Shown here: piece after piece, positions 11,887-63,878 of the stretch
Layout: each line of letters opens with the position of its first letter
Numbering within the stretch: the first letter of the stretch is position 1
NCBI GenBank assembly: GCA_001798135.1
Contig: MGRJ01000020.1
Coordinates: 31,513-95,512 of the forward strand
From: Deltaproteobacteria bacterium RIFCSPHIGHO2_02_FULL_40_28
Lineage (GTDB): Bacteria > UBA10199 > 2-12-FULL-40-28
Reading direction: 5' to 3'
DNA length: 64,000 bases
The notes under the pieces: generated by a model
The model's database searches: none
Told to the model about the DNA's origin: nothing
The model's input: only the letters and a program-made list of their open reading frames with translations
Program-made: the position numbers and the translations under genes

Positions 11887-11992
11887 GGTCAGGGGGGAGT
11901 ATTTCTTTCGTCCCTGCGGAACTCCTCGCCCTTCGACTTTGCTCAGGGCTCGTCAGACAGTCCTCGCTCCTCAAGAAACACTCCCCCCTGCC
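11887..11992 (-). repeat. Family-A GC-rich structured repeat (conserved core, complementary flanks), copy 1
   Basis: Reverse complement carries the core CGAGGACTGTCTGACGAGCC...GGCGAGGAGTTCCGCAGG flanked by inverted arms (GGTCAGGGGGGAG / CTCCCCCCTGCC); intergenic after panC. Confidence 0.85.
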
Positions 11993-19120: not shown

Positions 19121-19742
19121 GAAAATAAAAATATTTCTGTTTTGTTTTTGTTTTATTTCAGAAATTTGGGCTGGAATTACACTTTCCCAAAAGCTTCAAG
19201 AACACTATCAAACTCTTCAATTCTGGTCTGCTGATTTTGAGCAACAAACCTATGTGGAAATTTTAGATAAAAAAATTAAAAAACAAGGGCGCATTTTTAT
19301 GAAAAAATCCGGAGAAATGCGCATTGAATATCAAGGCCATGGATCTAAAACTTATATAAGTAATGGGAAAAAAGTATGGATTTATTCACCGGATTTAAAT
19401 CAAACTGAAGTGTTTGATCAGTCCAAACTTCTTTCCAAAGAAGCTATTACTTTTTTAAATGGTTTGGGAGATTTAGAAAAAGATTTTGCAACACGTTCTT
19501 TTAATCCTGTAAAAGATCCCAGTTTTCGTTTTGATATTCCCAAGGAGCTTCAATATTTAGAGCTTATTCCTCGTAAAAAAAGTTCTGTGATTTCTAAAAT
19601 TCTTTTAGGGATCGAACCTGTGAGTAGTTTGGTAACCGAAGCTACTCTTTCCAATGTTTCTGGAAATGTAACTCGTTATGTTTTTAAAAATATCGATATT
19701 AAAACTAATCCAAGTCAGGATCTTTTTACCTTGGAGGAATAA
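19110..19742 (+). CDS. lolA: Outer-membrane lipoprotein carrier LolA-like protein
   Basis: Signal peptide (IFLFCFCFISEIWA) and LolA-like blocks (GRIFMKKSGEMRIEY, GKKVWIYSPDLNQTEVFD); start overlaps the elbB stop. Confidence 0.7.
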   Translation: MRLKKIKIFLFCFCFISEIWAGITLSQKLQEHYQTLQFWSADFEQQTYVEILDKKIKKQGRIFMKKSGEMRIEYQGHGSKTYISNGKKVWIYSPDLNQTEVFDQSKLLSKEAITFLNGLGDLEKDFATRSFNPVKDPSFRFDIPKELQYLELIPRKKSSVISKILLGIEPVSSLVTEATLSNVSGNVTRYVFKNIDIKTNPSQDLFTLEE

Positions 19743-20233
19743 TGCCTAGCTTTGACGTTGTTTCTGAAATCAATCTTCAAGAAGTAGACAATGCAGTAAA
19801 CCAAGCTTCCAAAGAAATTGGAACACGCTATGATTTTCGTGGATCTAAATGTTCTCTTACTTTTGAAAAAGAAAAAAAATTAATCCAAATTATCGGGGAT
19901 GATGATTATAAAATGAAAGCCATGATTGATATTTTGCAAAGTAAAATTCATAAAAGAGGCATTGCACTTAATGCTCTTCAATTTGGTAAAATAGAAGACT
20001 CAGGCGGCAGTTTAAAAAGATGCACGGTTACTTTGGTGATGGGAATTGATCAAGAAAAAGCCAAAAGCATTATTAAAATCATTAAAGATATGAAATTAAA
20101 GATTCAAGCCCAAATTCAAGAAGAGAAAGTGAGAGTAACTGGAAAAAATAAGGACGATTTGCAAGACACGATTTCTTTTTTGAAGGGTCAAACATTTGAG
20201 ATTCCTCTTCAATTTTCCAATTTTAGGGATTAA
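19742..20233 (+). CDS. yajQ: YajQ-family nucleotide-binding protein (UPF0234)
   Basis: MPSFDVVSEINLQEVDNAVNQASKEIGTRYDFRGS is a characteristic YajQ N-terminus; about 163 aa. Confidence 0.85.
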   Translation: MPSFDVVSEINLQEVDNAVNQASKEIGTRYDFRGSKCSLTFEKEKKLIQIIGDDDYKMKAMIDILQSKIHKRGIALNALQFGKIEDSGGSLKRCTVTLVMGIDQEKAKSIIKIIKDMKLKIQAQIQEEKVRVTGKNKDDLQDTISFLKGQTFEIPLQFSNFRD

Positions 20234-20267
20234 AGGCACCTCTATTTACTCAAATTTTTTTCTATTT

Positions 20268-20443
20268 GTCATTCCCGCGAAGGCGGGGGTCCATCTTGGT
20301 TCCCCTCCTTTGTAAGGAGGGGTTAGGGGAGGTAGAGAGTTTAGTAAGACTCTACCCCCTCCAACTCCCCCTTACAAAGGGGGAGAGTACAGATGGATCC
20401 CTGCCGGAGTTTACCCCTGCGAAGGCAGGGGCAGGGATGACAC
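20268..20443. repeat. Composite palindromic element: family-B terminal inverted repeats enclosing family-C hairpins
   Basis: Left end GTCATTCCCGCGAAGGCGGGGGTCCATCT, right end AGATGGATCCCTGCC...GGGATGAC. Interior has perfect hairpins CCCCTCC-TTTGTAA-GGAGGGG and CTCCCCC-TTACAAA-GGGGGAG. About 175 bp, GC-rich in an AT-rich context. Confidence 0.85.
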
Positions 20444-20523
20444 GAAACCGTAATTTTTAGAGGTTCCCTTAAGAAGTAGTGGTACAGTTTGAATTTTAAG
20501 AGTGAAGAGGAACTATGAAAATT

Positions 20524-20925
20524 TTAGTTGGCAGGTGGGTCATTAGGTTTAATCTTAATACTTTTGTAACCATATCCACCTACACCACCAGCAGCGATGT
20601 ATAGAATAGCTTTTACGAACTCTTTAACAATTTCATCTTTATTCAGATAAAGAGCATATGCAAAAAAACCCAAAATAAGTGTTAAGCTTATTCCTGCAAA
20701 CCAAAATATTTTTTTAATTATATCTCTTTGATGAGTTCTATTTAACTCTAGATCCCCTGCTTGGACTTGCATGCTTTGCACTGCATACTTATAACTTCTT
20801 TCATCAGAAGCTGTCCTAGCTTCGATTTCTTTTTCTCGAACCTTGAGTTCTTCTTTCTGAAATTCAAGAAATTTTAATGGAAGTTGGTTTGGGTCAGCAG
20901 GGAGATTTATATTGTTTTCAGACAT
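20524..20925 (-). CDS. Hypothetical single-pass membrane protein
   Basis: 133 aa: charged, coiled-coil-like N-terminal part, one TM helix (FWFAGISLTLILGFFAYALYL), Gly-rich C-terminal tail (GGVGGYGYK); no homolog recognised. Confidence 0.4.
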   Translation of the reverse strand: MSENNINLPADPNQLPLKFLEFQKEELKVREKEIEARTASDERSYKYAVQSMQVQAGDLELNRTHQRDIIKKIFWFAGISLTLILGFFAYALYLNKDEIVKEFVKAILYIAAGGVGGYGYKSIKIKPNDPPAN

Positions 20926-21290: not shown

Positions 21291-21370
21291 CTGCGATAGG
21301 AACCCATCTTAATTCCCCTCCTTTGTCCCACAGGGACTTCGGAGGGGTAAGGGGAGGTAGAGAGTTTTGT
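21291..21370. repeat. Family-C partial element (left half of the 20268 composite)
   Basis: ACCCATCTTAATTCCCCTCCTTTGT...GGAGGGGTAAGGGGAGGTAGAGAGTTT closely matches the interior of the composite element. Confidence 0.75.
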
Positions 21371-21475
21371 ATACACCAGCTAAAAGTGAAAATACTATAC
21401 TACTAATTAAAACTTTCCCTTTTCACAAAATCTCTTTTCGTTTAAAATACTTAAGTTCAATCAAGAGGAGGAAAA

Positions 21476-26405: not shown

Positions 26406-27104
26406 TTAGCGCCACCTGGATGGATAATCTGTAATAATTCCAGTTACTTGTCTATCTTGAAACCAGGATAGTTTTTGGGGATCATTTAATGTCCAAATCC
26501 AATAATCAATCTTGCAGGGGTTCCATTTTTGAAGGCGTTTTTCTGTAGCCCAATTGGTTTCCAAGTTTAAAGTAGCAACTTTCAAGTAACGAATCCAGAA
26601 ACCAATCCCTCTTAAAGTACATTTGGGATCAATTAAAAGCCCTCGTTTAATTTCAGGAGCAATTTTTTTCATGCGGTTTAAATTTAAAACATTGAAAGAA
26701 GAAACATAAATTTTATCAGTAAGATTAAATTTTCGAATACATTCTGCCAATTTTTTTTCAACTCCATCTGAAAAAATACCTGTCGATTTAATTTCGACAT
26801 TGATGATTTTAAATTTTTGGCCAAAATTTTCAAAAACTTCATCTAAAGTGGGAATTTTTTCTCCATCGCCAAAATCCAGTTTTTTGAGTTCACTTAGATT
26901 TAAACGTCTTGTCCATACGTTGATGCCGATTAAAGTTTTTAAATTTTCATCATGGGTTACTACCAGATGACCATCTTTGGAGAGAAAAACATCTAATTCA
27001 ATTCCATCGGCCCCTTCCTCAAAGGCATATTGAAAAGAGCGAAGTGTATTTTCTGGAGCACGCTTTGATGAGCCACGATGGCCTAAAATTAACATACCCA
27101 TCAT
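26406..27104 (-). CDS. Glycerophosphodiester phosphodiesterase
   Basis: GDPD motifs HRGSSKRAPENTL, GADGIELDV, HLVVTHDENL; start overlaps the rsmE stop. Confidence 0.8.
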   Translation of the reverse strand: MMGMLILGHRGSSKRAPENTLRSFQYAFEEGADGIELDVFLSKDGHLVVTHDENLKTLIGINVWTRRLNLSELKKLDFGDGEKIPTLDEVFENFGQKFKIINVEIKSTGIFSDGVEKKLAECIRKFNLTDKIYVSSFNVLNLNRMKKIAPEIKRGLLIDPKCTLRGIGFWIRYLKVATLNLETNWATEKRLQKWNPCKIDYWIWTLNDPQKLSWFQDRQVTGIITDYPSRWR

Positions 27105-27853
27105 GATACCCCCTCACCCTGCACCCTCTTCCCCAAGGGGGAGAAGGGAAACTTAGTTGTTAAAATTGAAGCTGCATGCAAGGCTGCTGTTTCTACTCGA
27201 AGAATCAAAGGCCCTAACGAGCACAAAGTAAAATTAACTTTTTCTCCTAGAGCTATTTCTGCTGGATGCCATCCCCCTTCAGGTCCAATCCAGAGGTTAA
27301 TGTCATTAAGTTGCTCTGGAAATTTTATTTGGGCTAAAGAAGGATGTTTTCCTTTTTCAGCGCAAAAAATATTGAAATGATTTTTTTGTTTTTGAATGGC
27401 TTCCTCAAAATGGAGGGCAGAATTAATTTTTAAAGGTTGAATGCGTCCGCATTGTTTTTGGGCTTCAGTTGCAATTTTTTCAAAACGAGAAAATCTAGAT
27501 TCTTTTTCTATTTTACCAATGGAAAAACGAGTGTGGATGGGAGTAAGAGAGGCTAGATTTAATTCTACTGCCTTTTGAATAATCAGTTCTGTTTTTTGAC
27601 CTTTAAGCATGCCTAGAAAAAGATGTAGAGGGTAAGGAGGGGATATTTCTACAACTTTCTTAAGATTTTCTACACAAACAGTTTTTCCAATGCTTATAAT
27701 TTTTCCTTCATAGTGAGTTTTAATTCCATCATGTAAAGCTAGGCTTTCTCCTGGTTTCATTCGCAATACTTTAGAAATATGATAGGCTTCATCATCAGTG
27801 ATGAGAACACAACCTTGACTTATTTGATGGGGATCGGCTTTAAAATAAGGCAT
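27101..27853 (-). CDS. rsmE: 16S rRNA (uracil1498-N3)-methyltransferase RsmE
   Basis: RsmE-like N-terminus and SPOUT-type C-terminal domain (NLWIGPEGGW); the last ~13 codons are encoded by a GC-rich palindromic repeat. Confidence 0.8.
   Translation of the reverse strand: MPYFKADPHQISQGCVLITDDEAYHISKVLRMKPGESLALHDGIKTHYEGKIISIGKTVCVENLKKVVEISPPYPLHLFLGMLKGQKTELIIQKAVELNLASLTPIHTRFSIGKIEKESRFSRFEKIATEAQKQCGRIQPLKINSALHFEEAIQKQKNHFNIFCAEKGKHPSLAQIKFPEQLNDINLWIGPEGGWHPAEIALGEKVNFTLCSLGPLILRVETAALHAASILTTKFPFSPLGKRVQGEGVS
27109..27152. repeat. Family-D GC-rich palindromic unit inside the rsmE 3' coding end
   Basis: CCCCCTCACCCTGCACCCTCTTCCCCAAGGGGGAGAAGGG; same unit as in the 42275 element. Confidence 0.75.
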
Positions 27854-28817: not shown

Positions 28818-28849
28818 TCTATGTGACTTTGTTATTCCCTGCATCATTT

Positions 28850-28917
28850 GTCATCCCCGCGCAGGCGGGGATCCATCTTTGAATTTAAGATGGATTCCCA
28901 CCTTCGTGGGAATGACA
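28850..28917. repeat. Family-B palindromic element
   Basis: GTCATCCCCGCGCAGGCGGGGATCCATC...GATGGATTCCCACCTTCGTGGGAATGAC: two inverted hairpin units; intergenic after the ROK kinase gene. Confidence 0.85.
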
Positions 28918-30726: not shown

Positions 30727-30744
30727 ATTAAGTTTTTTCAGATG

Positions 30745-30826
30745 CGGGTGACGCTGGGGGGTGTTTTAAAAGCGCAGCGGTAACGAGCGCGAGCATTTAA
30801 AATACCCCCCAAGCGGCAGGACCCGC
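30745..30826. repeat. Family-E GC-rich palindromic element
   Basis: GCGGGTGACGCTGGGGGGTGTTTTAAA...TTTAAAATACCCCCCAAGCGGCAGGACCCGC; long imperfect hairpin between the divergent epimerase and GT2 genes. Confidence 0.8.
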
Positions 30827-37646: not shown

Positions 37647-38352
37647 AGTCATAACTCCCCCAATTCTGGTGATGATTCATGGAGCTGGTGGAAATTATAC
37701 CAACTGGCCCCTTTCTTTAAGAAAGTTGCCAGGCATCAATATTGTAGCTCTTGATTTGCCAGGGCATGGTAAATCTAAGGAAGAGGGTTTTGATTCTACC
37801 AACGCCTATGCTCATTTTGTTTCCAATTTTGTTACAAATTCCAATCTTAAAAAAGTGGTGCTTGTAGGACATTCGATGGGTGGCGCCATTGCCATGTACG
37901 AAGCTCTTGGCAAACCAAGTTGGCTTTGTGGTTTGGTTTTACTAAGTACGGGGGCTAAACTCAAAGTATCTTCTCAATTGATGGAATTGTTAAAAAATCA
38001 TTCGAAAAATATCAGTTCGTTTTTATCTCAAAATTTATTTAGTACTCATGCTGATCCTTTGCTTATTTCTGAAAGTGAAAAACAATTAAGTAAAATAAAT
38101 CCCAAAGTTTTACTGGGTGATTTTGTTGCTTGTGATAATTTTGATATCAGAGATCGTATTAAGGAAATTAAAATTCCCACCCTGATTATTGTTGGAGAAA
38201 AAGATTGTATGACGCCCCCATCTTATTCACAATTTCTGGCTGAAAATATTTTGGGTGCACAACTTGAAATCATAAAAGACGCAGGACATATGGTGATGTT
38301 GGAGAAACCTGATGAGGTTTCGAAATTAATTGTAAGTTTTATAAATCGATAG
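37621..38352 (+). CDS. Alpha/beta-fold hydrolase
   Basis: Nucleophile elbow GHSMGG, HG oxyanion region (IHGAGGN), C-terminal His (GHMVM). Confidence 0.75.
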   Translation: MQKQKTQYKVITPPILVMIHGAGGNYTNWPLSLRKLPGINIVALDLPGHGKSKEEGFDSTNAYAHFVSNFVTNSNLKKVVLVGHSMGGAIAMYEALGKPSWLCGLVLLSTGAKLKVSSQLMELLKNHSKNISSFLSQNLFSTHADPLLISESEKQLSKINPKVLLGDFVACDNFDIRDRIKEIKIPTLIIVGEKDCMTPPSYSQFLAENILGAQLEIIKDAGHMVMLEKPDEVSKLIVSFINR

Positions 38353-38437
38353 CGGGTCCTGCCGCCAGGAGGTTTCCCGCTGGTGCTCGCCCTAAGGCTG
38401 CGCGCCATCGGAAGCCCTCCTCCTGGCGTCACCCGCT
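38351..38437. repeat. Family-E GC-rich palindromic element (opposite orientation)
   Basis: AGCGGGTCCTGCCGCCAGGAGG...CCTCCTGGCGTCACCCGCT; termini are inverted complements of each other and match the ends of the 30745 element. Confidence 0.8.
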
Positions 38438-40460: not shown

Positions 40461-40551
40461 CTGACAGGGGGATTCCTTTCGGGCCCTGCGGAACTCCTCG
40501 CCCGAAGGCTCGTCAGACAGTCCTCGGTCCCTTCAGGAACCCCCCTGCCAG
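40461..40551 (-). repeat. Family-A GC-rich structured repeat, copy 2
   Basis: Same core (reverse orientation) with different but mutually complementary arms (CTGACAGGGGGATTCC / GGAACCCCCCTGCCAG); between divergent ilvC and the ABC permease. Confidence 0.85.
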
Positions 40552-42274: not shown

Positions 42275-42406
42275 GCGGGTGACACGGCCTTGTCCCCTCC
42301 CCCTTGAGGGGGGAGGGTTAGGGAGAGGGTGAAAATTTTGAATTACCCCTCACCCTGCACCCTCTCCCCCAAGGGGAGAGGGGAAGAATGGGCAGGACCC
42401 GCTGAC
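42275..42406. repeat. Composite element: family-E-like termini enclosing family-D hairpins
   Basis: Starts GCGGGTGACACGG, ends GGCAGGACCCGCTGAC; interior hairpins CCCCTCCCCCTTGAGGGGGGAGGG and CCCTCTCCCCCAAGGGGAGAGGG; between dppC-like and nagZ. Confidence 0.8.
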
Positions 42407-42413
42407 TTTTATT

Positions 42414-43472
42414 ATGAAGCATCTTATTGGAGAGCACATTGTAGGTGGATTTGATGGCGTAACGATAACTGCGCAATTACATTTGCTTGTTCAAAAATAT
42501 CACTTGGGTGGTTTTATTTTTTTTCGTCGAAATATTGAAAATACAGATCAAGTTTTAGAACTCACTCAAAGTCTTCAAGAAAAATCAGAAAATATTTTAT
42601 GGATGGGGGTAGATCAAGAAGGAGGACGTGTTTTTCGTTTAGGGGAACCCTTCACGACAATTCCTACCATGGCCATTGTGGGCGAATATTATCGGCGCAC
42701 CAAAAATAAAAAAGTTCTTTTTCAATTAGGAAAACTTTTAGGAACAGAACTCAAAGCTGTGGGATTTAACTGGGACTACGCTCCCGTGGTGGATGTTCAT
42801 TCTAATCCTCAAAACCCAATCATTGGTGATCGCTCTTTTAGTCCCGATCCCCATGTGGTTACACAGTGTGCAGAAGCTGTAATCAAGGGGCTGCATAGTG
42901 TTGGAGTTGTTTCTTGCATCAAACATTTTCCAGGGCATGGAGAAACAGCGGTTGATTCGCATCTTAAACTTCCTGTGGTAAAATCTCCTGGAAGGCTTTT
43001 ATGGAAGCGTGATGTTTTCCCTTTTCGGGAGCTGATTAAAAAACATAGGGTGCCAACGCTGATGACAGCTCATGTAAAATACATGGAGTTTGATAAACAA
43101 AATTGTGCCACTCTTTCCAAACCCATTTTAACGCGTATTTTGCGTGGACGTTTGGGGTATAAAAATTTGATTGTTTCGGATGATCTTTTTATGAAGGCCA
43201 TTGCAGACAGGTATAGTTTAGCTGATGCTTGCGAGCAATTTTTTATGGCAGGGGGTGATATTGCTCTTATTTGCAAAGAGCCAGAACTACAAATTGAAGT
43301 CATCGAACAATTAGAAAAATCAGTTTCAAAAAGTAAGGCCTTCGAAAAAAAATTAACAGAATCTTATTCTCGTATTAAACGCATCAAAAAACACTATCTC
43401 AAAAACCAATCTCGTCCATCCCTTGAGGTTATTGGATGTGTTGCTCACAAAGAAATTGCAAATATTTTTTAG
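42414..43472 (+). CDS. nagZ: Beta-N-acetylhexosaminidase (GH3, NagZ-like)
   Basis: GH3 blocks MGVDQEGGRV, NWDYAPVVDV, KHFPGHG. Confidence 0.85.
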   Translation: MKHLIGEHIVGGFDGVTITAQLHLLVQKYHLGGFIFFRRNIENTDQVLELTQSLQEKSENILWMGVDQEGGRVFRLGEPFTTIPTMAIVGEYYRRTKNKKVLFQLGKLLGTELKAVGFNWDYAPVVDVHSNPQNPIIGDRSFSPDPHVVTQCAEAVIKGLHSVGVVSCIKHFPGHGETAVDSHLKLPVVKSPGRLLWKRDVFPFRELIKKHRVPTLMTAHVKYMEFDKQNCATLSKPILTRILRGRLGYKNLIVSDDLFMKAIADRYSLADACEQFFMAGGDIALICKEPELQIEVIEQLEKSVSKSKAFEKKLTESYSRIKRIKKHYLKNQSRPSLEVIGCVAHKEIANIF

Positions 43473-44578
43473 ATCAGTTGATTAAGAAACAAACCAGCTG
43501 GACAAATACGGATATTTTCTTTTGAAAGAAAATCTTTCTTACCCTGAAGTGAAATTTGCCAGGCTGGAACGGAGGGAAATTTTGTTTTAAGATATTTAAG
43601 TCCTTCTGAAGGAGCATCATCAGAGAGCTTGCATTCAACAAACAAGTAAGGTTTACGGTTTTCAGTTACAACAAAATCAACCTCTCGTTTATGCACATCA
43701 CGAAAATAACAAAGGGCCATTTCTCTGCCTTGCGTGTCATACAAATAATGGGTCCACTTCAAAAGATGGCAAGCTATCATATTTTCGAAACGAAGAGCAG
43801 AATTGTCTACAAGGGTCCAATCATAGTGGTAATGTTTTTGTTCTTTTTTAACAGCTCTGATTTTAGGAGCCCCAAAGGGTGCAAGCCTAAAAATAGCATA
43901 GAGTCGCTCAAGAACATTGAGCCAACGAGAAACTGTTTTATGATTTAATTGTAGATCTTCTCTTAAGCTATTGATGGAAAGAGGGCTTCCAACCAATTCA
44001 GGCAAACGAATCATAAGAAGTTCTAGTTGTCCTAAATTTTCGATGCCCTCAAGAGATCTCACTTCATCTTGAATCAAGCGATTGCGGTATTCAAGAGACC
44101 ATCGTTTGGATTCAATTTCATTTTTTTTAAGATAGGGTTCTGGGAATCCGCCCAATTGGAGAAGTTGTTGTAAATGAGAGGAAGAAGACATCTTCAGTTC
44201 GGCAAAAGAAAGAGGGTGAAGACGCAAATAATGATAGCGGCCTTGGAGCGAATCGCCACCAAAACGATAATAATCAAGCCTAGCACTTCCTGTAATTAAA
44301 AATTGGCAATTCTTTTTTCTTTCATCGTAGAGTCCTTTGAGATAATTCCGCCACTGACGATACTTGTGGATTTCATCAAAAATAAGGAGCCCTTTTTCAG
44401 GGAGTTCGTATTTAAGAATACGTTCCCGATGTTCTGGGATGTCCCAGTTCAAATAAACATGGGAAGAATAAGCCAAATCCAAGGCGAGGGTTGTTTTCCC
44501 AACCTGCCGTGGTCCACCTACGAAAACCATTTTGGAATTCAAGTCTTTAAGGATTTGTTTTTGAAGATACCGCTCCAT
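43469..44578 (-). CDS. AAA+ ATPase, AAA_14/DUF4143-type
   Basis: Walker A GPRQVGKTTLA, Walker B LLIFDEIH, DUF4143-like C-terminus; in tandem with the paralog at 44620. Confidence 0.8.
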   Translation of the reverse strand: MERYLQKQILKDLNSKMVFVGGPRQVGKTTLALDLAYSSHVYLNWDIPEHRERILKYELPEKGLLIFDEIHKYRQWRNYLKGLYDERKKNCQFLITGSARLDYYRFGGDSLQGRYHYLRLHPLSFAELKMSSSSHLQQLLQLGGFPEPYLKKNEIESKRWSLEYRNRLIQDEVRSLEGIENLGQLELLMIRLPELVGSPLSINSLREDLQLNHKTVSRWLNVLERLYAIFRLAPFGAPKIRAVKKEQKHYHYDWTLVDNSALRFENMIACHLLKWTHYLYDTQGREMALCYFRDVHKREVDFVVTENRKPYLFVECKLSDDAPSEGLKYLKTKFPSVPAWQISLQGKKDFLSKENIRICPAGLFLNQLI

Positions 44579-44619
44579 TTGAGTATTTTATACAATAGGG
44601 TAAATAAGTAAATACTTTT

Positions 44620-45777
44620 TTATACAATGGTATAAGGCAACTCTTTTACAAATTTAGCAAAAGGGAGAACCCTTATGGGAAAAGTGGCATGTTCATAATC
44701 TTTTACCCCTAGATGAACTTGATAAAAGCGAGGTATTTTTAGCCTTTGGCAATAGTAAAAAAGAGAAGGATTAATTGTTGTTTGATTGATATGGCACTCA
44801 ACAGCAAATAATGGTTTTTTTTGTTTTAAGACAACAAAATCAACCTCACGTTTATCTGTATCACGGATATAACGAAGTTCCATAGGAAATCCCTCTACAT
44901 CTTCCATAAAGTTGCAATATTTTAGGAGATGAGAAGCAACCATGTTTTCAAAGCGGGGGCCTTTTTCTTCAACAAGGGACCAATCCCATAAATAAGCCTT
45001 ATTTTCCTTTTTAACTGCCCTGATTTTAGGAGCTCCAAAGGGAGGAATACGAAATAAAACAAAAAGACGTTCTAGAATGATTAGCCAATTTTGAACAGTT
45101 GGGTGAGAAACTTGGAGATCTTCTCTTAAAGCATTAATAGAAAGAGGGGACCCTACCAAGGCAGGGAGTCTTTCTGCAAGTTGACCAACCAGAGTTACCT
45201 CTTCAACACGTTCTAAATCTCTTAAGTCATCTCGTAATACTTGGTTAAATCTTTCCTGATGCCATCGCCTGAGTTTTTTTTGTGATTGGGAAAATAAAGG
45301 TTCTGGAAAGCCACCAAACTGAAAGAGGGATTCTACAGCATCAACATGAGCCTCTTTGTCTAGTTCTAAAAGACTAAAAGGGTGGAGTCTAAAAAAATGA
45401 TATCTTCCCGTAAGGGCATCTCCACCACGTCTATAGAGATCAAGTCTGGCGCTTCCTGTAACTAAATAAGCACGTTGTGTTTTTGTTTTATCATAAAGAC
45501 CTTTAAGCCAATTACGCCATCTTTTATATTTATGAATTTCATCGAATACCAAAAGTTTTTGATTGGGTGGAAATTGAAAATTAAGGAGAAGCTGTTGATC
45601 TTCTAAGAAATCCCAGTTAAAGTAGGCAGGATGGTTTTCGCTTCCTCCTAGGAGATTTAAAGCCAAGGTTGTTTTACCTACTTGGCGAGGCCCTGATAGA
45701 AAAACCATTTTTTCTTTTAAGTCTTCTTGAATATAGGGGGTTAAATAGCGTTTTGGCAGGTTATTAGTTATTTTCAT
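44620..45777 (-). CDS. AAA+ ATPase, AAA_14/DUF4143-type
   Basis: Walker A GPRQVGKTTLA, Walker B LLVFDEIH; start codon lies 3 nt from a perfect 30-bp palindrome. Confidence 0.8.
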   Translation of the reverse strand: MKITNNLPKRYLTPYIQEDLKEKMVFLSGPRQVGKTTLALNLLGGSENHPAYFNWDFLEDQQLLLNFQFPPNQKLLVFDEIHKYKRWRNWLKGLYDKTKTQRAYLVTGSARLDLYRRGGDALTGRYHFFRLHPFSLLELDKEAHVDAVESLFQFGGFPEPLFSQSQKKLRRWHQERFNQVLRDDLRDLERVEEVTLVGQLAERLPALVGSPLSINALREDLQVSHPTVQNWLIILERLFVLFRIPPFGAPKIRAVKKENKAYLWDWSLVEEKGPRFENMVASHLLKYCNFMEDVEGFPMELRYIRDTDKREVDFVVLKQKKPLFAVECHINQTTINPSLFYYCQRLKIPRFYQVHLGVKDYEHATFPIRVLPFAKFVKELPYTIV

Positions 45778-45780
45778 AGT

Positions 45781-45810
45781 ACTTAAAATTACTCATGAGT
45801 AATTTTAAGT
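45781..45810. promoter_or_regulatory. Perfect 30-bp palindrome (putative operator) immediately upstream of the AAA ATPase gene
   Basis: ACTTAAAATTACTCATGAGTAATTTTAAGT is exactly self-complementary; 3 nt from the start codon at 45777; flanked by further AAAATTACT / AAAATAACT motif copies. Confidence 0.5.
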
Positions 45811-46014
45811 TATATTAAAATTACTAATATCTAAAGTCAACAAATAAAAATCCTTTTTGTGGTCTAACCCCCCCAAAACGAGTGGTTAAGACCTCAAACA
45901 TACAAAAAGCATACTAAAATAACTAATAATATCAAATAGTTATATATATCATTTTTGGCATTGGCCTTGCAATTGTCATAAAGTAACCCGGGGTGGGGAT
46001 TGTGGATATTTTTT

Positions 46015-51175: not shown

Positions 51176-51186
51176 AGTTCTTCTGT

Positions 51187-51212
51187 TATTCCCACGAAGG
51201 TGGAGATCTATC
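51187..51212. repeat. Family-B half-unit (fragment)
   Basis: TTATTCCCACGAAGGTGGAGATCTATC resembles one arm of the family-B unit (compare 28889-28916). Confidence 0.5.
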
Positions 51213-51395
51213 TTAATTTTTTGAAAGAAGTAACTTTTTAAAAGAATGTTTTAAGGATGGATTTTTTTTCCAAATTTCAAACATAAGTTGGCGATAACCA
51301 TCTAGCCAAAGCAAAGTATCCTCTGCCGATAGCTTGGGAGGAGGATTTTTTTTATTCCATTTCGCCCAAATCTTTTTTTCTGAAATCGCCATCAT
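51213..51395 (-). CDS. Hypothetical small protein
   Basis: 60-aa ORF 1 nt downstream of the NTase-like gene; its 3' end runs into a GC-rich repeat fragment, so coding status is uncertain. Confidence 0.3.
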   Translation of the reverse strand: MMAISEKKIWAKWNKKNPPPKLSAEDTLLWLDGYRQLMFEIWKKNPSLKHSFKKLLLSKN

Positions 51396-54674: not shown

Positions 54675-54762
54675 GAGAGGGAGGCTTTTGGAGGTTTCGA
54701 GGACTGTCTGACGAGCCTTCAAGGCGAGGAGTTCCGCAGAAACCGGAAAAAGTCTCCCTCCC
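54675..54762 (+). repeat. Family-A GC-rich structured repeat, copy 3
   Basis: Core CGAGGACTGTCTGACGAGCCTTCAAGGCGAGGAGTTCCGCAG with arms GAGGGAGGCTTTT / AAGTCTCCCTCC; between acnA and the secreted-protein gene. Confidence 0.8.
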
Positions 54763-55861: not shown

Positions 55862-55905
55862 AAAAATTAAGAACACATCTAAAAACTCAATTAAAATCTA
55901 AAATT

Positions 55906-55974
55906 GTCATTCCTGCGGAAGCAGGAATCCAGGCTTTTCAAGAGTTTCTGGATCCCTGCTTTCGCAGGGATGAC
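55906..55974. repeat. Family-B palindromic element
   Basis: GTCATTCCTGCGGAAGCAGGAATCCAGGC...GGATCCCTGCTTTCGCAGGGATGAC; sits between cutA and the truncated ATPase ORF. Confidence 0.85.
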
Positions 55975-55990
55975 ATAGAATAGTTTTTTA

Positions 55991-56821
55991 GTGATGCTCT
56001 TAATTACAAATTTACAACATAATGTAAAAATGTATTACAAATTTACAACATGTTGTAAATTTGCTTTGGCATGGGGCTTGCTGCCCTTGGTTGTTTTGAA
56101 CCCAACCGATGCAAAAGACATTCTTGTTTCCTATGTGCACACCTACATCAAGGAAGAAATTAAAGAAGAAGGGCTGATCAGAAAAGCAGAACCCTTTGTA
56201 CGTTTTTTAGAAATTGCAGCCATGATGAATGGCCAACAAATTAATGCGGAAAATATTGCGAGGGATGCAAAAATTCCGCGAAGCACAGTGGATATTTATT
56301 TTTCTATTTTGGAAGATACACTTCTTGGTTATCGGCTTCCCTCTTACCGGCCTAGAGCTAAGGTGCGGGAGCAAACTCATCCAAAATATTATTGGTTTGA
56401 TTCAGGTGTTGCCCGTGCAGCCGCAGGCCTTTTAAACGATGCTCCCGATCCAGCTTGGCTTGGCTATGCCTTGGAAACACTTGTTTATCTTGAACTGAGG
56501 GTTCATAACCATATATCGGGAAAGGAAAGACTTTTATTTTTTTATCGTGTTTCCAATACAATTGAGATCGATTTTATCATTGAAACCCGCAAAGCTGTTA
56601 GTGCCTCCAAGGCCCACGTTGTTTGTGTTGAAGTCAAACATGCAAAAACATGGAACCGAAGATGGGAAACTCCCATGCGGGACTTAGCCTCTTCTGGAAA
56701 GGTGGTGGTGGAGAAAATGTTTGGGGTTTATCAAGGGGATCATCCCTATCATTTTGATGGGGTGGATGTTTATCCCATAGGTGATTTTTTAAAAATCCTT
56801 TACGAAGGGAAGGTTTTTTAG
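55991..56821 (+). pseudogene. 5'-truncated AAA_14/DUF4143-type ATPase gene (DUF4143 portion only)
   Basis: Translation aligns to the C-terminal DUF4143 part of the intact paralogs and lacks the whole P-loop domain. The upstream 129 bp are occupied by a repeat, and the first ~25 codons of the ORF consist of tandem palindromic DNA repeats. Confidence 0.5.
56003..56058. promoter_or_regulatory. Tandem 18-bp direct repeats, each with a palindromic half-site
   Basis: ATTACAAATTTACAACAT at 56003-56020 and 56034-56051; second copy forms the perfect palindrome TTACAACATGTTGTAA; centres about 31 bp apart. Confidence 0.4.
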
Positions 56822-56843
56822 AACGCATTACACCCACAGATGA

Positions 56844-58010
56844 TTAAGCAAGCTTCGCCAATTCTTGGGCCATGGCTTTAACCCCGATGGCTTCCACACC
56901 ATCACCAAGGGGATAACGTTCATTCCCCGCATAAACAACAAAGCAACGTTGCGGTTTCATGTCTTGGCAGGCTTGGTAAAATCCTTTTTTCGGTTTGGGA
57001 GCAAGACCTCGTTTTATTTCAATGAACCAAAGCTTAGAACCTTTCAGCTCCAACACCAAATCTACTTCGGCGCCCGCTGCCGTTCGGTAAAAACTTTTTT
57101 CTATTTTTTCGGGCAGAGCGCGCAAAAGCGATTCGATGACAAATCCTTCCCAGCTAGCGCCCACAATGGGATGACCCAGAAGACTTTCTTCCGTGGTTAA
57201 CCCCAGAAGCGTGTGAGCAAGGCCACTGTCGCGGATAAAAATTTTAGGTGATTTTACCAGCCTTTTGCCGATGTTGGCATGAATGGGCTTTAACCTTCGT
57301 ACCAAAAGTAAATCAACCATGAGGTCCAAATACCGTGCAATGGTTTTGCCATCCACAGCTAGCCCCCTGGCCAGCCCCGCCGCATTGAGAAGACTTCCTT
57401 GCCCATGAGCTAGCATGGTCCAGAACCGCCGTAAGGTTTCGCTAGGGATGCGCGGGCCTAGTTGGGGGATGTCGCGCTCAAGGTATGTCCTGATGAATTC
57501 TTCACGCCAAGTGCTGCTCTGTTCTTCAGTTTTGGCTAGAAAACTGTTGGGAAAACCACCCCGCACCCAGAGCCGTTCCATTTGGGTTTCCGGCAATTCC
57601 AATGAATCAAACGGCGAGAGTTCTACGTAGGCAATGCGCCCGGCCAAACTTTCACCTGATTGTTTGAGCAAATCCAGCGATGCCGAACCTAAAAGAAGAA
57701 ACCGGCCTTGCTTCAACCCTTGCCTCCGGCCTTGGTCGATTAAACCTCGCAGGGTTTGAAAAAGTTGCGGGGCCCGTTGTATTTCATCGATCACAACAAG
57801 TTTGTTTTCATGAAGTTTTAAATATTTTTCAGCATCTAAAAGTTTTCCGCGGTCGGAGGGTAATTCTAAATCGAGGTAAACGCTCGGTCTTTTAGCTGCA
57901 ATCCCATGCGCCAGAGTTGTTTTTCCCACTTGCCGGGGGCCCACCAACGCCACAGCCGGAAATTCCTTCAGTCTCTTAACAACTAGGTTAGCTACCCGAC
58001 GGTTTATCAT
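56844..58010 (-). CDS. AAA+ ATPase, AAA_14/DUF4143-type
   Basis: Walker A GPRQVGKTTLA, Walker B LVVIDEIQ; start taken at MINRRVANL (the longer frame to 58151 would overlap sdhC). Confidence 0.8.
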   Translation of the reverse strand: MINRRVANLVVKRLKEFPAVALVGPRQVGKTTLAHGIAAKRPSVYLDLELPSDRGKLLDAEKYLKLHENKLVVIDEIQRAPQLFQTLRGLIDQGRRQGLKQGRFLLLGSASLDLLKQSGESLAGRIAYVELSPFDSLELPETQMERLWVRGGFPNSFLAKTEEQSSTWREEFIRTYLERDIPQLGPRIPSETLRRFWTMLAHGQGSLLNAAGLARGLAVDGKTIARYLDLMVDLLLVRRLKPIHANIGKRLVKSPKIFIRDSGLAHTLLGLTTEESLLGHPIVGASWEGFVIESLLRALPEKIEKSFYRTAAGAEVDLVLELKGSKLWFIEIKRGLAPKPKKGFYQACQDMKPQRCFVVYAGNERYPLGDGVEAIGVKAMAQELAKLA

Positions 58011-58076
58011 CCTTGTAATTATGGCATACAATTCCATAAATGCAAGGTTAGAGTAAAAGACAAGGCATATTTTTCC

Positions 58077-58105
58077 TTGACTAACCACGCCCCCTTTAAT
58101 ATTTA
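58077..58105 (+). promoter_or_regulatory. Candidate promoter for sdhCAB
   Basis: TTGACT at 58077-58082 followed 15-17 nt later by an A/T-rich -10-like hexamer (TAATATTTA region); about 40 nt upstream of the sdhC ATG. Confidence 0.3.
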
Positions 58106-58143
58106 ACGTCAACATCTTTAACGTCTTTATTTTTCTATTCGAC

Positions 58144-58974
58144 ATGACCACTCAAGAAATAGCAGTTGGAGGATATTCTAAAGGGTTTTCGCAAACACAT
58201 CGAACCGATCGTTGGTGGATTGGCCCCTTACTTACCTTTTTGGGTTTTTCTAGTTTTATTGTTTATTCAACCTGGGCAGCCCTTCAGGGAAATCACTATT
58301 TTTATGGTTCTTATCTTTCCCCCTTTTATTCTCCGCTCTTGTTTGTTGATCCTTCTGTAACTGGAGGGGCATCTCTTGAACATGCCTGGTTTGGAGGATG
58401 GCCTTCCTGGTGGCCTTCTTTTGTTCCTGCTTCGCCAGCCTTTTTGGTTCTAGCCTTTCCCGGTGCTTTCCGTTTTACCTGTTATTATTATCGAAAGGCT
58501 TACTATCGCGCCTTTGCCTTCACCCCTCCCGGTTGCGCTGTAACGGCTCTTCCCCAAAAAAATTATAAGGGAGAAACTTTTTTACTTCTTTTTCAAAATC
58601 TTCATCGCTATGCCCTTTATTTTGCCCTCTTTTTTATCATCATTCTTTTTTCAGATGCGGTGCAGGCCTTTTTTCGTGACGGAAAATTGGGAATAGGCGT
58701 AGGAAGCATTGTGTTGTTACTTAATGCCACTTTTCTTTCCTGCTACACCTTGGGATGCCATTCTTTTCGTCATCTTGTGGGGGGGAAGCTTGATTGTTTT
58801 TCGTGTGATGCCACAAGTAGCACGCGGTATGGTCTCTGGAAACGAGTTACCTTATTGAACGAAAATCACATGCTTTTTGCCTGGATTTCTCTTTTTTGGG
58901 TGGGATTTTCTGATGTTTACGTTCGTTTGGTTTCAATGGGCATTTGGCACGACCTATCCACATGGGGAAATTAA
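58144..58974 (+). CDS. sdhC: Succinate dehydrogenase/fumarate reductase cytochrome b membrane anchor (single-subunit type, putative)
   Basis: 276 aa, about 5 TM helices with several conserved His; located immediately upstream of sdhA-sdhB (C-A-B order). Confidence 0.6.
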   Translation: MTTQEIAVGGYSKGFSQTHRTDRWWIGPLLTFLGFSSFIVYSTWAALQGNHYFYGSYLSPFYSPLLFVDPSVTGGASLEHAWFGGWPSWWPSFVPASPAFLVLAFPGAFRFTCYYYRKAYYRAFAFTPPGCAVTALPQKNYKGETFLLLFQNLHRYALYFALFFIIILFSDAVQAFFRDGKLGIGVGSIVLLLNATFLSCYTLGCHSFRHLVGGKLDCFSCDATSSTRYGLWKRVTLLNENHMLFAWISLFWVGFSDVYVRLVSMGIWHDLSTWGN

Positions 58975-62819: not shown

Positions 62820-62837
62820 TAGATATCGTGATTATTG

Positions 62838-63878
<1,041 letters not shown>

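What the first reader, a model, noticed from the sequence alone, without database searches (positions are those of the whole stretch)
20268..20443. Modular, nested GC-rich palindromic elements (families B, C, D, E) at about one per 5 kb
Besides family A there are at least nine further GC-rich palindromic insertions in this AT-rich window. Family B: 28850, 55906, fragment 51187, and the ends of the 20268 composite. Family C/D hairpins: 21291, 27109, and the interiors of the 20268 and 42275 elements. Family E: 30745, 38351, and the termini of 42275. Units recombine: B ends wrap C hairpins, E ends wrap D hairpins. This indicates an active or recently active family of non-autonomous elements whose modules are exchanged.
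Basis: seen in the sequence. Interest (0 to 1): 0.45.

Follow-up and report, generated by a model that had tools for sequence, protein, structure and literature searches.

The report
Nested mosaic of known palindromic repeats
The 176-base GC-rich palindrome is real, and it consists of two already-described kinds of bacterial hairpin repeat, one nested inside the other; this is an unusually clear example from an uncultured groundwater bacterium, not a new kind of element.

Summary
All nine elements exist at or within 13 bases of the stated positions. The six intact ones fold far better than shuffled sequence (z -4.5 to -7.2). Several independent assemblies reproduce them, and further copies lie at other loci.

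The families are unrelated classes, not one modular family.
- Family B is the CGTC-1 REP / dRS3 / NTS hairpin, the target of the GIY-YIG single-strand nuclease Ssn. It occurs as tag-outward inverted pairs, the same layout that flanks ssn genes in other contigs.
- Families C and D are BoxC-type intrastrand-triplex motifs in inverted doublets. They are about 77% identical to doublets in E. coli.
- Family E is a roughly 85-nt long hairpin with conserved ends. I found it only in this lineage.

The 20267-20442 element is a NIME-like unit: an Ssn-motif pair framing a BoxC doublet. The 42275 element is a BoxC doublet inside an E shell.

Other strains carry a plain B pair after yajQ followed by different genes, so B elements coincide with rearrangement breakpoints.

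I found no target-site duplications and no transposase. No ssn gene turned up in about 0.3 Mb of host-lineage DNA. How the elements spread therefore remains inference.

The parts
20267..20442 (.). Composite, three-level nested palindrome: a B (Ssn-motif) pair framing a C (BoxC-type) doublet. Lies between the convergent genes yajQ (19742-20233 +) and a 133-aa ORF (20524-20925 -).
   Evidence: Sequence. DNA fold -50.7 kcal/mol, z -7.2. Identical in several independent assemblies.
20267..20294 (+). Left B hairpin, TGTC|ATTCCCGC|GAAG|GCGGGGGT|CCAT. The stem is imperfect (6 of 8 pairs). The perfect version is in L012.
   Evidence: Matches the published SRM search pattern. The breakpoint against L012 lies 0-2 nt upstream. 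The breakpoint against L006 lies inside the 3' arm.
20302..20334 (+). C unit: an intrastrand-triplex (BoxC-type) motif with 9/3/9/3/9 geometry, CCCCTCCTT-TGT-AAGGAGGGG-TTA-GGGGAGGTA.
   Evidence: Triplex-motif finder, 0 mismatches; 0 hits in 30 shuffles.
20353..20385 (-). C unit in inverted orientation, the second half of the doublet.
   Evidence: A 94%-identical doublet stands alone at L167:7970-8057.
20391..20442 (-). Right B arm. It carries an extra complete hairpin (CCCCTGC-GAAG-GCAGGGG) where the loop of the B hairpin would be.
   Evidence: Compared with the plain allele GGATCCCTGCCTTCGCAGGGATGAC in L006 and L008. Fold.
21304..21371 (+). Single C unit with a small hairpin (TCCCACAGGGA) inserted in its loop. 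It keeps a CCATCTT B-tail remnant. Lies in a divergent promoter region.
   Evidence: 91-96% identical to 20291-20346. Fold not significant.
27109..27150 (-). Decayed D unit forming the 3' end and stop codon of rsmE.
   Evidence: 97% identical over 31 nt to 42346-42376. Translation of the tail. The Pfam domain ends at residue 231 of 250.
28849..28917 (.). Plain B pair: two tag-outward hairpins with a 7-nt central loop. It is preceded by a half-hairpin stub at 28832-28848. Lies between convergent genes.
   Evidence: (z -6.1).
30744..30826 (+). E element, subtype 1: a long imperfect hairpin between divergent genes.
   Evidence: (z -6.7).
38352..38436 (-). E element, subtype 2, starting on the last base of the upstream stop codon. 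Lies between convergent genes.
   Evidence: (z -4.5). Three copies at 85-87% identity in L173, L179 and L175.
42275..42402 (+). Composite: E termini (GCGGGTGACAC ... GGCAGGACCCGC) framing a C'/D triplex-motif doublet.
   Evidence: (z -6.8). The same doublet occurs without an E shell at L181:9039-9129.
42295..42329 (+). C' triplex motif (9/5/9/3/9, one mismatch).
   Evidence: Copies identical over 39-41 nt in L181 (two) and L156.
42346..42382 (-). D triplex motif (10/3/10/4/10, no mismatch).
   Evidence: Identical copies in L181 and L167. Aligns with the E. coli mrcB-hrpB doublet.
51184..51214 (+). Degenerate single B hairpin (TGTT tag, 6 of 8 stem pairs).
   Evidence: Fold not significant.
55905..55975 (.). 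Plain B pair of the CCAG type. It has a roughly 30-nt conserved right-hand extension, as does the L006 allele.
   Evidence: 84% identity over 103 nt with L006; z -7.1.

Best explanation
The window carries three unrelated classes of structured intergenic repeat. They sit inside one another's centres of symmetry and form NIME-like mosaics.

Shown:
- Family B is the CGTC-1 REP / dRS3 / NTS hairpin. It has a TGTC tag, an 8-bp stem that starts with AT, a 4-nt loop and a CCA tail. This is the published binding and cutting motif of the GIY-YIG single-strand-DNA nuclease Ssn.
- B occurs as inverted pairs with the tags pointing outward. In unrelated contigs the same geometry encloses ssn genes.
- Families C, C' and D are BoxC / PIT / TM_ECO intrastrand-triplex motifs in inverted doublets.
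- Family E is a roughly 85-nt long hairpin with fixed ends. I found it only in this lineage.
- The composite at 20267-20442 is a B pair whose short central spacer is replaced by a C doublet.
- The composite at 42275-42402 is an E hairpin whose apex is replaced by a C'/D doublet.

Inferred:
- B pairs are ssn-less miniatures of an SRM-ssn-SRM unit, acted on in trans.
- When these long palindromes are single-stranded they fold back and expose their apex loops. New modules enter there, either by nuclease-initiated repair or by template switching.
- Identical B hairpins at different loci then serve as recombination sites. This would produce the alternative gene orders seen downstream of yajQ.
For: B identity:
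- 18 distinct hairpins all carry the TGTC tag, the AT-first 8-bp stem and the 4-nt loop; 16 of 18 have the CCA tail. There are compensatory changes at 4 of 8 stem pairs.
- These features are exactly those that define CGTC-1 REPs, which equal dRS3 and RPE-6 (PMC3733652).
- The L006 allele matches the Neisseria NTS consensus CGTCATTCCCGCGMAVGCGGGAATCYRG at 27 of 28 positions (consensus from PMC11893778).
- The GTC before the palindrome and the C after it are both kept. The paper reports these as critical for cutting and for binding.

Frame model:
- In contigs fetched with the B pattern, four ~90-aa GIY-YIG genes (Pfam PF01541, E 1e-14 to 1e-16) sit next to B hairpins.
- In L082 and L147 the gene lies between tag-outward hairpins 320-329 nt apart, and the left hairpin is identical to the L006 hairpin.
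- A second host-lineage B pair carries a different 105-nt palindrome at the same central position (L167:9857-10026).

C/D identity:
- Four motifs have the published 9-10 / 3-5 / 9-10 / 3-4 / 9-10 pyrimidine-purine-mirror-purine geometry; none appear in 30 shuffles (definition from PMC4666352).
- The 42285-42395 doublet matches 4796 of 5426 E. coli genomes. The mrcB-hrpB doublet is one example, at 77.6% identity.

E:
- Five copies share 30 predicted pairs, and 8 of those pairs show compensatory changes. The variation is concentrated at the apex.

Rearrangement:
- There are three junction types at B. Two of them rest on independent assemblies.
- Both literatures link these repeats to recombination and instability.
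Against: - No ssn homologue was found in the window or in about 0.3 Mb of host-lineage DNA. The enzyme that the model needs is therefore not shown to exist in this organism.
- Ssn has only been shown to cut single-stranded DNA. It has not been shown to move DNA.
- Di Nocera et al. found no transposase associated with CGTC repeats. Holder et al. found no mobility genes near BoxC motifs.
- The strain comparison shows rearrangement breakpoints, not an empty site next to a filled site. Insertion at the apex is therefore inferred from anatomy only.
- L012 is a single scaffold that contains an N gap, and it could be chimeric at the repeat.
- The hairpins were partly selected for pairing. An unbiased tag-and-tail search gave 22 of 27 matches with at least 7 of 8 stem pairs.
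- It is not proven that the other metagenome loci belong to the same species as the window.
Confidence: 0.6

Rival explanations
1. The repeats are not mobile. They are host-maintained structural signals, such as mRNA 3'-end stabilisers, terminators or protein-binding sites. Gene conversion and hairpin-templated repair keep them similar, and the composites arise in place by template switching within palindromes.
For: Four of nine elements lie between convergent 3' ends (gene calls). Stems are kept through compensatory changes. There are no target-site duplications and no mobility genes nearby. Loop-level additions, such as the small hairpins in the 21304 C loop and in the right B arm, look like template-switch products.
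Against: Two elements sit in divergent promoter regions and one lies inside a coding 3' end. There is no run of T after most stems, and terminator-like sites are not enriched. Copies identical over 39-41 nt occur at unrelated loci. The same motifs occur across phyla and flank ssn genes. In-place origin cannot explain that spread.
Confidence: 0.2
2. The B pairs are REPINs, moved by a single-copy RAYT (Y1, IS200-like) transposase encoded elsewhere in the genome. The other families are its insertion targets or passengers.
For: B pairs have the REPIN layout: two inverted REP hairpins, a short spacer and no target-site duplication (REPIN definition from the abstracts).
Against: REPs flanking RAYT genes carry the GTAG tag. 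CGTC-tagged REPs were never found flanking RAYT genes. No Y1 transposase appears in the Pfam calls for window genes from 9.7 to 64 kb. Where B hairpins do flank a gene in other contigs, that gene is a GIY-YIG nuclease.
Confidence: 0.1
3. They are classical MITEs left behind by DDE-type insertion sequences.
For: They are short, have inverted ends, are multi-copy and lie between genes.
Against: There are no target-site duplications next to any of 23 elements. The one 9-bp flanking repeat, at L181:9039, does not survive correction for multiple testing. The ends are hairpins, not transposase-type terminal repeats. No insertion sequence is present in the window.
Confidence: 0.03
4. They are assembly artefacts of a metagenome-assembled genome.
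For: Many contigs end inside the 20267 composite. L012 contains an N gap.
Against: Identical sequence comes from at least six independent assemblies, and contigs from the two sides overlap. Contig ends at repeats are what true multi-copy sequence produces.
Confidence: 0.01

Closest known systems
Neisserial intergenic mosaic elements (NIME: dRS3-RS-dRS3) and the NTS / Ssn-related motif (SRM) targeted by the GIY-YIG ssDNA nuclease SsnA
   Same: The B hairpin matches the NTS consensus at 27 of 28 positions in the L006 allele. The GTC before the palindrome and the C after it are kept. Inverted hairpins frame a 19-214-bp inner repeat, as in NIMEs, and the elements coincide with rearrangements. The same tag-outward pair encloses ssn genes in other contigs.
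   Different: The host is an AT-rich, uncultured 'Deltaproteobacteria bacterium' from groundwater. The units are isolated, not in long arrays. Most window copies use ATCCCC/ATTCCT stems that fail the strict dRS3 consensus. The inner unit is a BoxC doublet, not a Neisseria RS family. No ssn gene was found in the DNA sampled.
CGTC-1 REP family (Di Nocera, De Gregorio and Rocco 2013), which equals Rickettsia RPE-6
   Same: All defining features are present: a CGTC/TGTC tag, an 8-bp stem starting with AT, a 4-nt loop, a CCA tail, mostly inverted pairs, and no associated transposase.
   Different: The family was reported mainly in Alphaproteobacteria. There the pairs sit inside palindromic targets (H. 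neapolitanus), whereas here the pair is the outer frame.
BoxC / PIT elements / TM_ECO intrastrand triplex motif (Bergler; Maher; Holder et al. 2015)
   Same: C, C' and D have the pyrimidine stem, purine stem and mirror purine strand with TTA-type second loops. They always lie between genes and occur as inverted ('palindromic') doublets, as at 5 of 18 E. coli MG1655 sites. They are about 77% identical to E. coli copies and are linked to local instability.
   Different: TM_ECO was reported in proteobacterial genomes, chiefly Enterobacteria. Here the motifs are nested inside other repeats, and subtype C has a different stem sequence (CCCCTCCTT).
E. coli BIMEs and REPIN-RAYT systems
   Same: Both are mosaic combinations of palindromic units. 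The inverted REP doublets form long hairpins and leave no target-site duplication.
   Different: Those REPs carry the GTAG tag and are tied to a Y1 transposase. B carries the CGTC-type tag and is tied, in other genomes, to a GIY-YIG nuclease.

Membership tests
CGTC-1 REP / dRS3 / NTS / SRM (family B) | Unpaired 5' tag CGTC (often TGTC), an 8-bp stem beginning with AT, a 4-nt loop and a 3-nt CCA tail | tested here: met
   All 18 distinct hairpins have TGTC, the AT-first stem and the 4-nt loop; 16 of 18 have CCA. An unbiased tag-and-tail search gave 22 of 27 matches with at least 7 of 8 stem pairs.
CGTC-1 REP / dRS3 / NTS / SRM (family B) | Match to the NTS consensus CGTCATTCCCGCGMAVGCGGGAATCYRG with at most one mismatch (the paper's own criterion) | tested here: inconclusive
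   Met by the L006 allele at the yajQ site. No window copy matched at one mismatch or fewer.
CGTC-1 REP / dRS3 / NTS / SRM (family B) | Match to the degenerate SRM pattern HGTCWYN(0-2)YYVSBRHN(0-5)WNVSBRGN(0-2)RNCYNB, enriched over shuffles | tested here: met
   2 hits in the window against a mean of 0.12 in 100 shuffles. 8 hits in 249 kb of host-lineage loci. Several real hairpins fall outside the pattern.
CGTC-1 REP / dRS3 / NTS / SRM (family B) | A cd10448 GIY-YIG (ssn) gene in the same genome, typically flanked by the motif | tested here: inconclusive
   No hit by tblastn, even at E = 50, in the host-lineage DNA held. The whole genome was not available. The association was reproduced in four unrelated contigs.
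CGTC-1 REP / dRS3 / NTS / SRM (family B) | Cut by Ssn as single-stranded DNA only | not testable with these tools
   This needs biochemistry.
NIME (dRS3-RS-dRS3) | Inverted dRS3-type repeats flanking a repeat unit of 19-214 bp (typically ~50-150 bp) that itself belongs to a family | tested here: met
   In 20267-20442 the roughly 100-nt inner unit is a C doublet. The same doublet stands alone at L167:7970-8057.
NIME (dRS3-RS-dRS3) | Clustering into long arrays of alternating dRS3 and RS units | tested here: not met
   Only isolated units and half-hairpin stubs were seen in the window and in 249 kb of other loci.
BoxC / PIT / TM_ECO triplex motif (families C, C', D) | C-rich stem of about 9 nt, a 3-6 nt loop, a complementary G-rich stem, a 3-nt loop, and a mirror-repeat G-rich third strand, with at most one mismatch | tested here: met
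   20302-20334, 20353-20385 and 42295-42329 fit exactly. 42346-42382 fits with a 4-nt second loop. There were 0 hits in 30 shuffles.
BoxC / PIT / TM_ECO triplex motif (families C, C', D) | Sequence relationship to the E. coli elements, and location between genes | tested here: met
   77.6% identity over 86% of the doublet; 4796 of 5426 E. coli genomes have a match; aligned with the mrcB-hrpB doublet.
BoxC / PIT / TM_ECO triplex motif (families C, C', D) | Forms an intrastrand triplex in vitro | not testable with these tools
   This needs CD or NMR on oligonucleotides.
REPIN-RAYT | A RAYT (Y1 transposase) gene flanked by the same REPs | tested here: inconclusive
   No PF01797 appears among the Pfam calls for window genes from 9.7 to 64 kb. 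The rest of the genome was not seen. The literature finds none for CGTC REPs.
MITE | Terminal inverted repeats plus a target-site duplication | tested here: not met
   No consistent flanking duplication at 23 elements.
Intrinsic terminator or a known RNA family | A GC stem followed by a run of T, or an Rfam match at the gathering score | tested here: not met
   Terminator-like sites: 27 against 19.8 +/- 5 expected, and only one of them (20285-20304) overlaps an element. Rfam: 0 gathering-level hits, and only sub-threshold microRNA-hairpin noise.

The most novel reading that the evidence does not exclude
Ssn-motif pairs may be a portable frame. The same two hairpins that enclose the ssn nuclease gene elsewhere would capture and spread other structured repeats, here BoxC triplex-motif doublets. 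Entry would be at the single-stranded apex of the folded-back palindrome. That would give BoxC elements, which have no known means of spread, a vehicle. It would also be the first natural evidence that Ssn-type units behave as mobile elements.
Probability: 0.2. Interest if true: 0.6.

Novelty: new member of a known kind. Interest (0 to 1): 0.33.

Why it matters
Two repeat classes have been studied separately and here lie nested within a single 176-base palindrome. One is the Ssn-related motif / dRS3, whose cognate nuclease was described only in 2025. The other is the BoxC triplex motif, whose origin and spread are unexplained. The host is an AT-rich groundwater bacterium in which both stand out sharply from the background.

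The public groundwater metagenomes (several from one project) hold several strains with different gene orders at these repeats. That offers a natural population in which to ask whether such repeats move, recombine, or both.

As it stands, the result mainly reclassifies the finding. It is a NIME-like mosaic of known element types plus one repeat (E) that I found only in this lineage. It is not a new kind of mobile element.

Tried and rejected
- **DUF559 link.** L012 has a DUF559 (Vsr-like endonuclease) fragment and an N gap inside the C unit at about 21352. I tested whether C/D motifs go with DUF559 genes. There were no other DUF559 hits in any host locus or in 60 contigs carrying C or D patterns. 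I dropped the idea; this is probably a scaffolding join.
- **Whole-genome census through species-representative genomes.** The family-A 20-mer gave 0 hits. A ROK-protein search found only distant Prevotella and Devosia relatives. The lineage was not retrievable from that collection with these two probes.
- **Reciprocal junction.** Its 93%-identical relative has gspN directly followed by rlmN, with no repeat. The reciprocal gspN|B|fumC junction could not be checked.
- **Target-site duplications.** None were found.
- **Known RNA families and terminators.** None were found.
- **Host ssn gene.** A protein search with an Ssn homologue returned 7561 family members, and none among the 120 listed could be assigned to the host.
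- **Spread of the C and D patterns in viral contigs.** Most hits were in contigs of 60-70% GC, where such strings arise by composition, so I did not count them. Only the few AT-rich hits were informative.
- **Match at 32416.** An 18-nt match to C' inside the asparagine synthase gene is a coding coincidence.
- **Family E elsewhere.** No match in plasmids or viral contigs.

Full report
**What is at 20268-20443**

The sequence from 20267 to 20442 is a 176-nt GC-rich (58%) palindrome in a 39% GC window. It lies between the convergent genes yajQ (19742-20233, +) and a 133-aa ORF (20524-20925, -). As single-stranded DNA it folds at -50.7 kcal/mol. Shuffled versions average -27.0 +/- 3.3, giving z = -7.2.

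It has three nested levels:
- An outer pair of hairpins, TGTCATTCCCGCGAAGGCGGGGGTCCAT ... ATGGATCCCTGCC[...]CAGGGATGACA (family B).
- An inner doublet of two inverted 33-nt units (family C, 20302-20334 and 20353-20385).
- The hairpin within each C unit.

All of them are present:
- Plain B pairs at 28849-28917 and 55905-55975.
- A degenerate single B hairpin at 51184-51214.
- A C unit at 21304-21371.
- A decayed D unit at 27109-27150.
- E elements at 30744-30826 and 38352-38436.
- E ends around a C'/D doublet at 42275-42402.

The six intact elements have fold z-scores between -4.5 and -7.2. The three fragments are not significant. Density is 1 per 7 kb without family A and 1 per 5 kb with it.

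**Not an artefact, and not confined to the window**

The window is identical to a 116-kb ENA scaffold and to contigs of the NCBI MAGs GCA_001798365.1 and GCA_001798255.1, which are labelled 'Deltaproteobacteria bacterium'. Many short-read contigs stop inside the composite. Contigs entering from the left reach 20432 and contigs entering from the right reach 20292, and they agree over the overlap.

A metagenome scan with the family-A core returned 29 further loci totalling 249 kb at about 40% GC. These share only repeats with the window. They hold:
- About 20 B hairpins, including seven pairs.
- Nine C/C'/D motifs.
- Three E copies.
- New combinations.

The new combinations are L167:9857-10026, a B pair with a different 105-nt palindrome at its centre, and L181:248-330, where a B hairpin, a C' half and an E terminus are joined. 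It is not proven that these loci belong to the same species as the window.

**Family B is a known motif**

Every B hairpin has a TGTC tag, an 8-bp stem that starts with AT, and a 4-nt loop; 16 of 18 have the CCA tail. Four of the eight stem pairs show compensatory changes. A search using only the tag and the tail gave 22 of 27 matches with at least 7 of 8 stem pairs.

These are the defining features of the CGTC-1 REP family. That family equals Neisseria dRS3 and Rickettsia RPE-6, and no transposase was found to be associated with it (PMC3733652).

A 2025 paper (PMC11893778) showed three things:
- The 28-nt NTS, CGTCATTCCCGCGMAVGCGGGAATCYRG, is bound and cut, as single-stranded DNA only, by the ~94-aa GIY-YIG nuclease SsnA.
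- ssn genes are typically flanked by such motifs.
- The GTC before the palindrome matters most for cutting, and the C after it matters most for binding.

The hairpin after yajQ in L006 is TGTCATTCCCGCGAAGGCGGGAATCCAG, which matches at 27 of 28 positions. Two window hairpins fit the paper's degenerate pattern, against 0.12 expected.

The B pattern is very widespread.

In four of the viral-collection contigs an ~90-aa GIY-YIG gene sits beside B hairpins. In L082 and L147 the gene lies between two tag-outward hairpins 320-329 nt apart, which is the geometry of a B pair. A B pair therefore looks like that unit without the gene. Other cargo also occurs between such pairs elsewhere (L092, L104).

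**Families C and D are also known**

Each unit is a pyrimidine stem, a loop, the complementary purine stem, a TTA-type loop, and a mirror-repeat purine strand. One example is CCCCTCCTT-TGT-AAGGAGGGG-TTA-GGGGAGGTA. This is the BoxC / PIT / TM_ECO intrastrand-triplex motif (PMC4666352).

According to that paper, the motif:
- always lies between genes;
- sometimes occurs as inverted doublets;
- is associated with local genome instability;
- has no known means of spread.

A finder built on the published geometry gave 5 hits in the window, 4 of which I judge real. It gave none in 30 shuffles. The 42285-42395 doublet matches 4796 of 5426 E. coli genomes. The mrcB-hrpB doublet aligns at 77.6% identity with the same layout.

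**Family E**

E has fixed ends, GCGGGTGACRC and GGCAGGACCCGC, around a long imperfect hairpin. Across five copies, 30 pairs are predicted and 8 of them show compensatory changes. The variation is concentrated at the apex. I found no copy in plasmids or viral contigs and no Rfam match.

**How the pieces relate**

In every composite the guest sits at the host's centre of symmetry:
- The C doublet replaces the 7-15-nt spacer of a B pair (window).
- A different palindrome does the same in L167.
- The C'/D doublet replaces the apex of E. The same doublet stands alone at L181:9039-9129.
- Small extra hairpins sit in the loop of the 21304 C unit and in the loop of the right B hairpin.
- Half-hairpin stubs (TGTYATYCCYGC-ATCATT) precede about seven B hairpins.

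By the published definition, inverted dRS3 repeats flanking a 19-214-bp repeat unit, the 20267 composite is a NIME-like unit. It is isolated rather than part of an array.

**Evidence of recent change**

Downstream of yajQ, which is 99.8% identical between strains, there are at least two real arrangements:
- yajQ | composite | 133-aa gene, in the window.
- yajQ | plain 71-nt B pair | fumC, in L006 and L008, which come from two independent assemblies.

A third arrangement, gspN | composite | 133-aa gene, is seen in one scaffold, L012. The breakpoint between the window and L012 lies 0-2 nt upstream of the TGTC tag. The breakpoint between the window and L006 lies inside the left hairpin.

These are rearrangements at B, not an empty site beside a filled site. 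Another contig (L025) leaves the window sequence exactly at the end of the D unit.

**What is not shown**

- There are no target-site duplications at 23 elements.
- The neighbouring genes are housekeeping genes.
- There is no ssn homologue in the host-lineage DNA held, and the rest of the genome could not be reached.
- Ssn is known only to cut DNA, not to move it.

The classification is therefore well supported. The mechanism is inference: ssn-less frames acted on in trans, entry at exposed hairpin apexes, and recombination between copies.

**Verdict**

The elements are a NIME-like mosaic of two known repeat classes plus one long-hairpin repeat that I found only in this lineage. This is a new member of a known kind and of moderate interest.

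Noticed in passing
window 11890-11990, 40466-40550, 54676-54762, 62836-62932: Family A is a roughly 100-nt palindromic repeat with an invariant 20-mer, GGCTCGTCAGACAGTCCTCG. It has four copies in the window. The 20-mer hit 29 more metagenome stretches and none in the species-representative genome collection. The metagenome scan did not return the window's own A loci, so that collection is incomplete for this organism.
   Followed up: partly
window 27101-27150 (- strand): The last ~14 codons and the stop codon of rsmE are supplied by a decayed triplex-motif unit (tail ...KFPFSPLGKRVQGEGVS*). The Pfam methyltransferase domain ends at residue 231 of 250. The stop codon overlaps the start of the next gene.
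   Followed up: partly
L012:629-843 (equivalent to window ~21352): One scaffold carries a DUF559 (Vsr-like endonuclease) gene fragment followed by a run of N, inserted inside the C unit, with GGGGAGGTAGAG repeated on both sides. No other DUF559 was found in any locus. It may be a scaffolding join at a repeat.
   Followed up: partly
window 28832-28848; also L161, L164, L167, L173, L175, L178: Half-hairpin stubs (TGTYATYCCYGC followed by ATCATT, or TGTCATTCCTC) sit directly upstream of complete B hairpins at about seven loci. It looks as if a new hairpin entered the loop of an older one.
   Followed up: no
window 20443-20475 and 55976-56003; L006:1972-2001; L181:7079-7095: A conserved stretch follows the right-hand B hairpin (…TTTTTAGAGGTG… / …GATTAGAGGTGGG…). 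The repeated unit is therefore asymmetric and about 30 nt longer than the hairpin pair.
   Followed up: partly
window 43469-45777 and 55994-58151: Four AAA_14 / DUF4143 ATPase genes are present. Two are tandem paralogues about 70-80% identical at the DNA level. AT-rich near-perfect palindromes lie next to them at 45762-45829 and 56007-56063.
   Followed up: no
L167:9887-9992: The insert at the centre of a B pair is a further palindromic module. It contains GTAGGGGCAACCCCCTGTGGTTGCCC and GGGCAGGCACAGGGGCCTGCCCCTAC, and it has its own TGTCAT...ATGACG ends.
   Followed up: no
L092:11722-12038 and L104:359-681: In unrelated contigs, tag-outward B-type hairpin pairs enclose small ORFs that are not GIY-YIG nucleases. 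The frame therefore carries varied cargo.
   Followed up: no
L233:6443-6510: In a viral-collection contig (45% GC), a C-type triplex motif lies immediately next to a CGTC-type hairpin (CGTCATTGCGAGCGAAGCGCGGCAATCCA). The two classes therefore also sit side by side outside this lineage.
   Followed up: no
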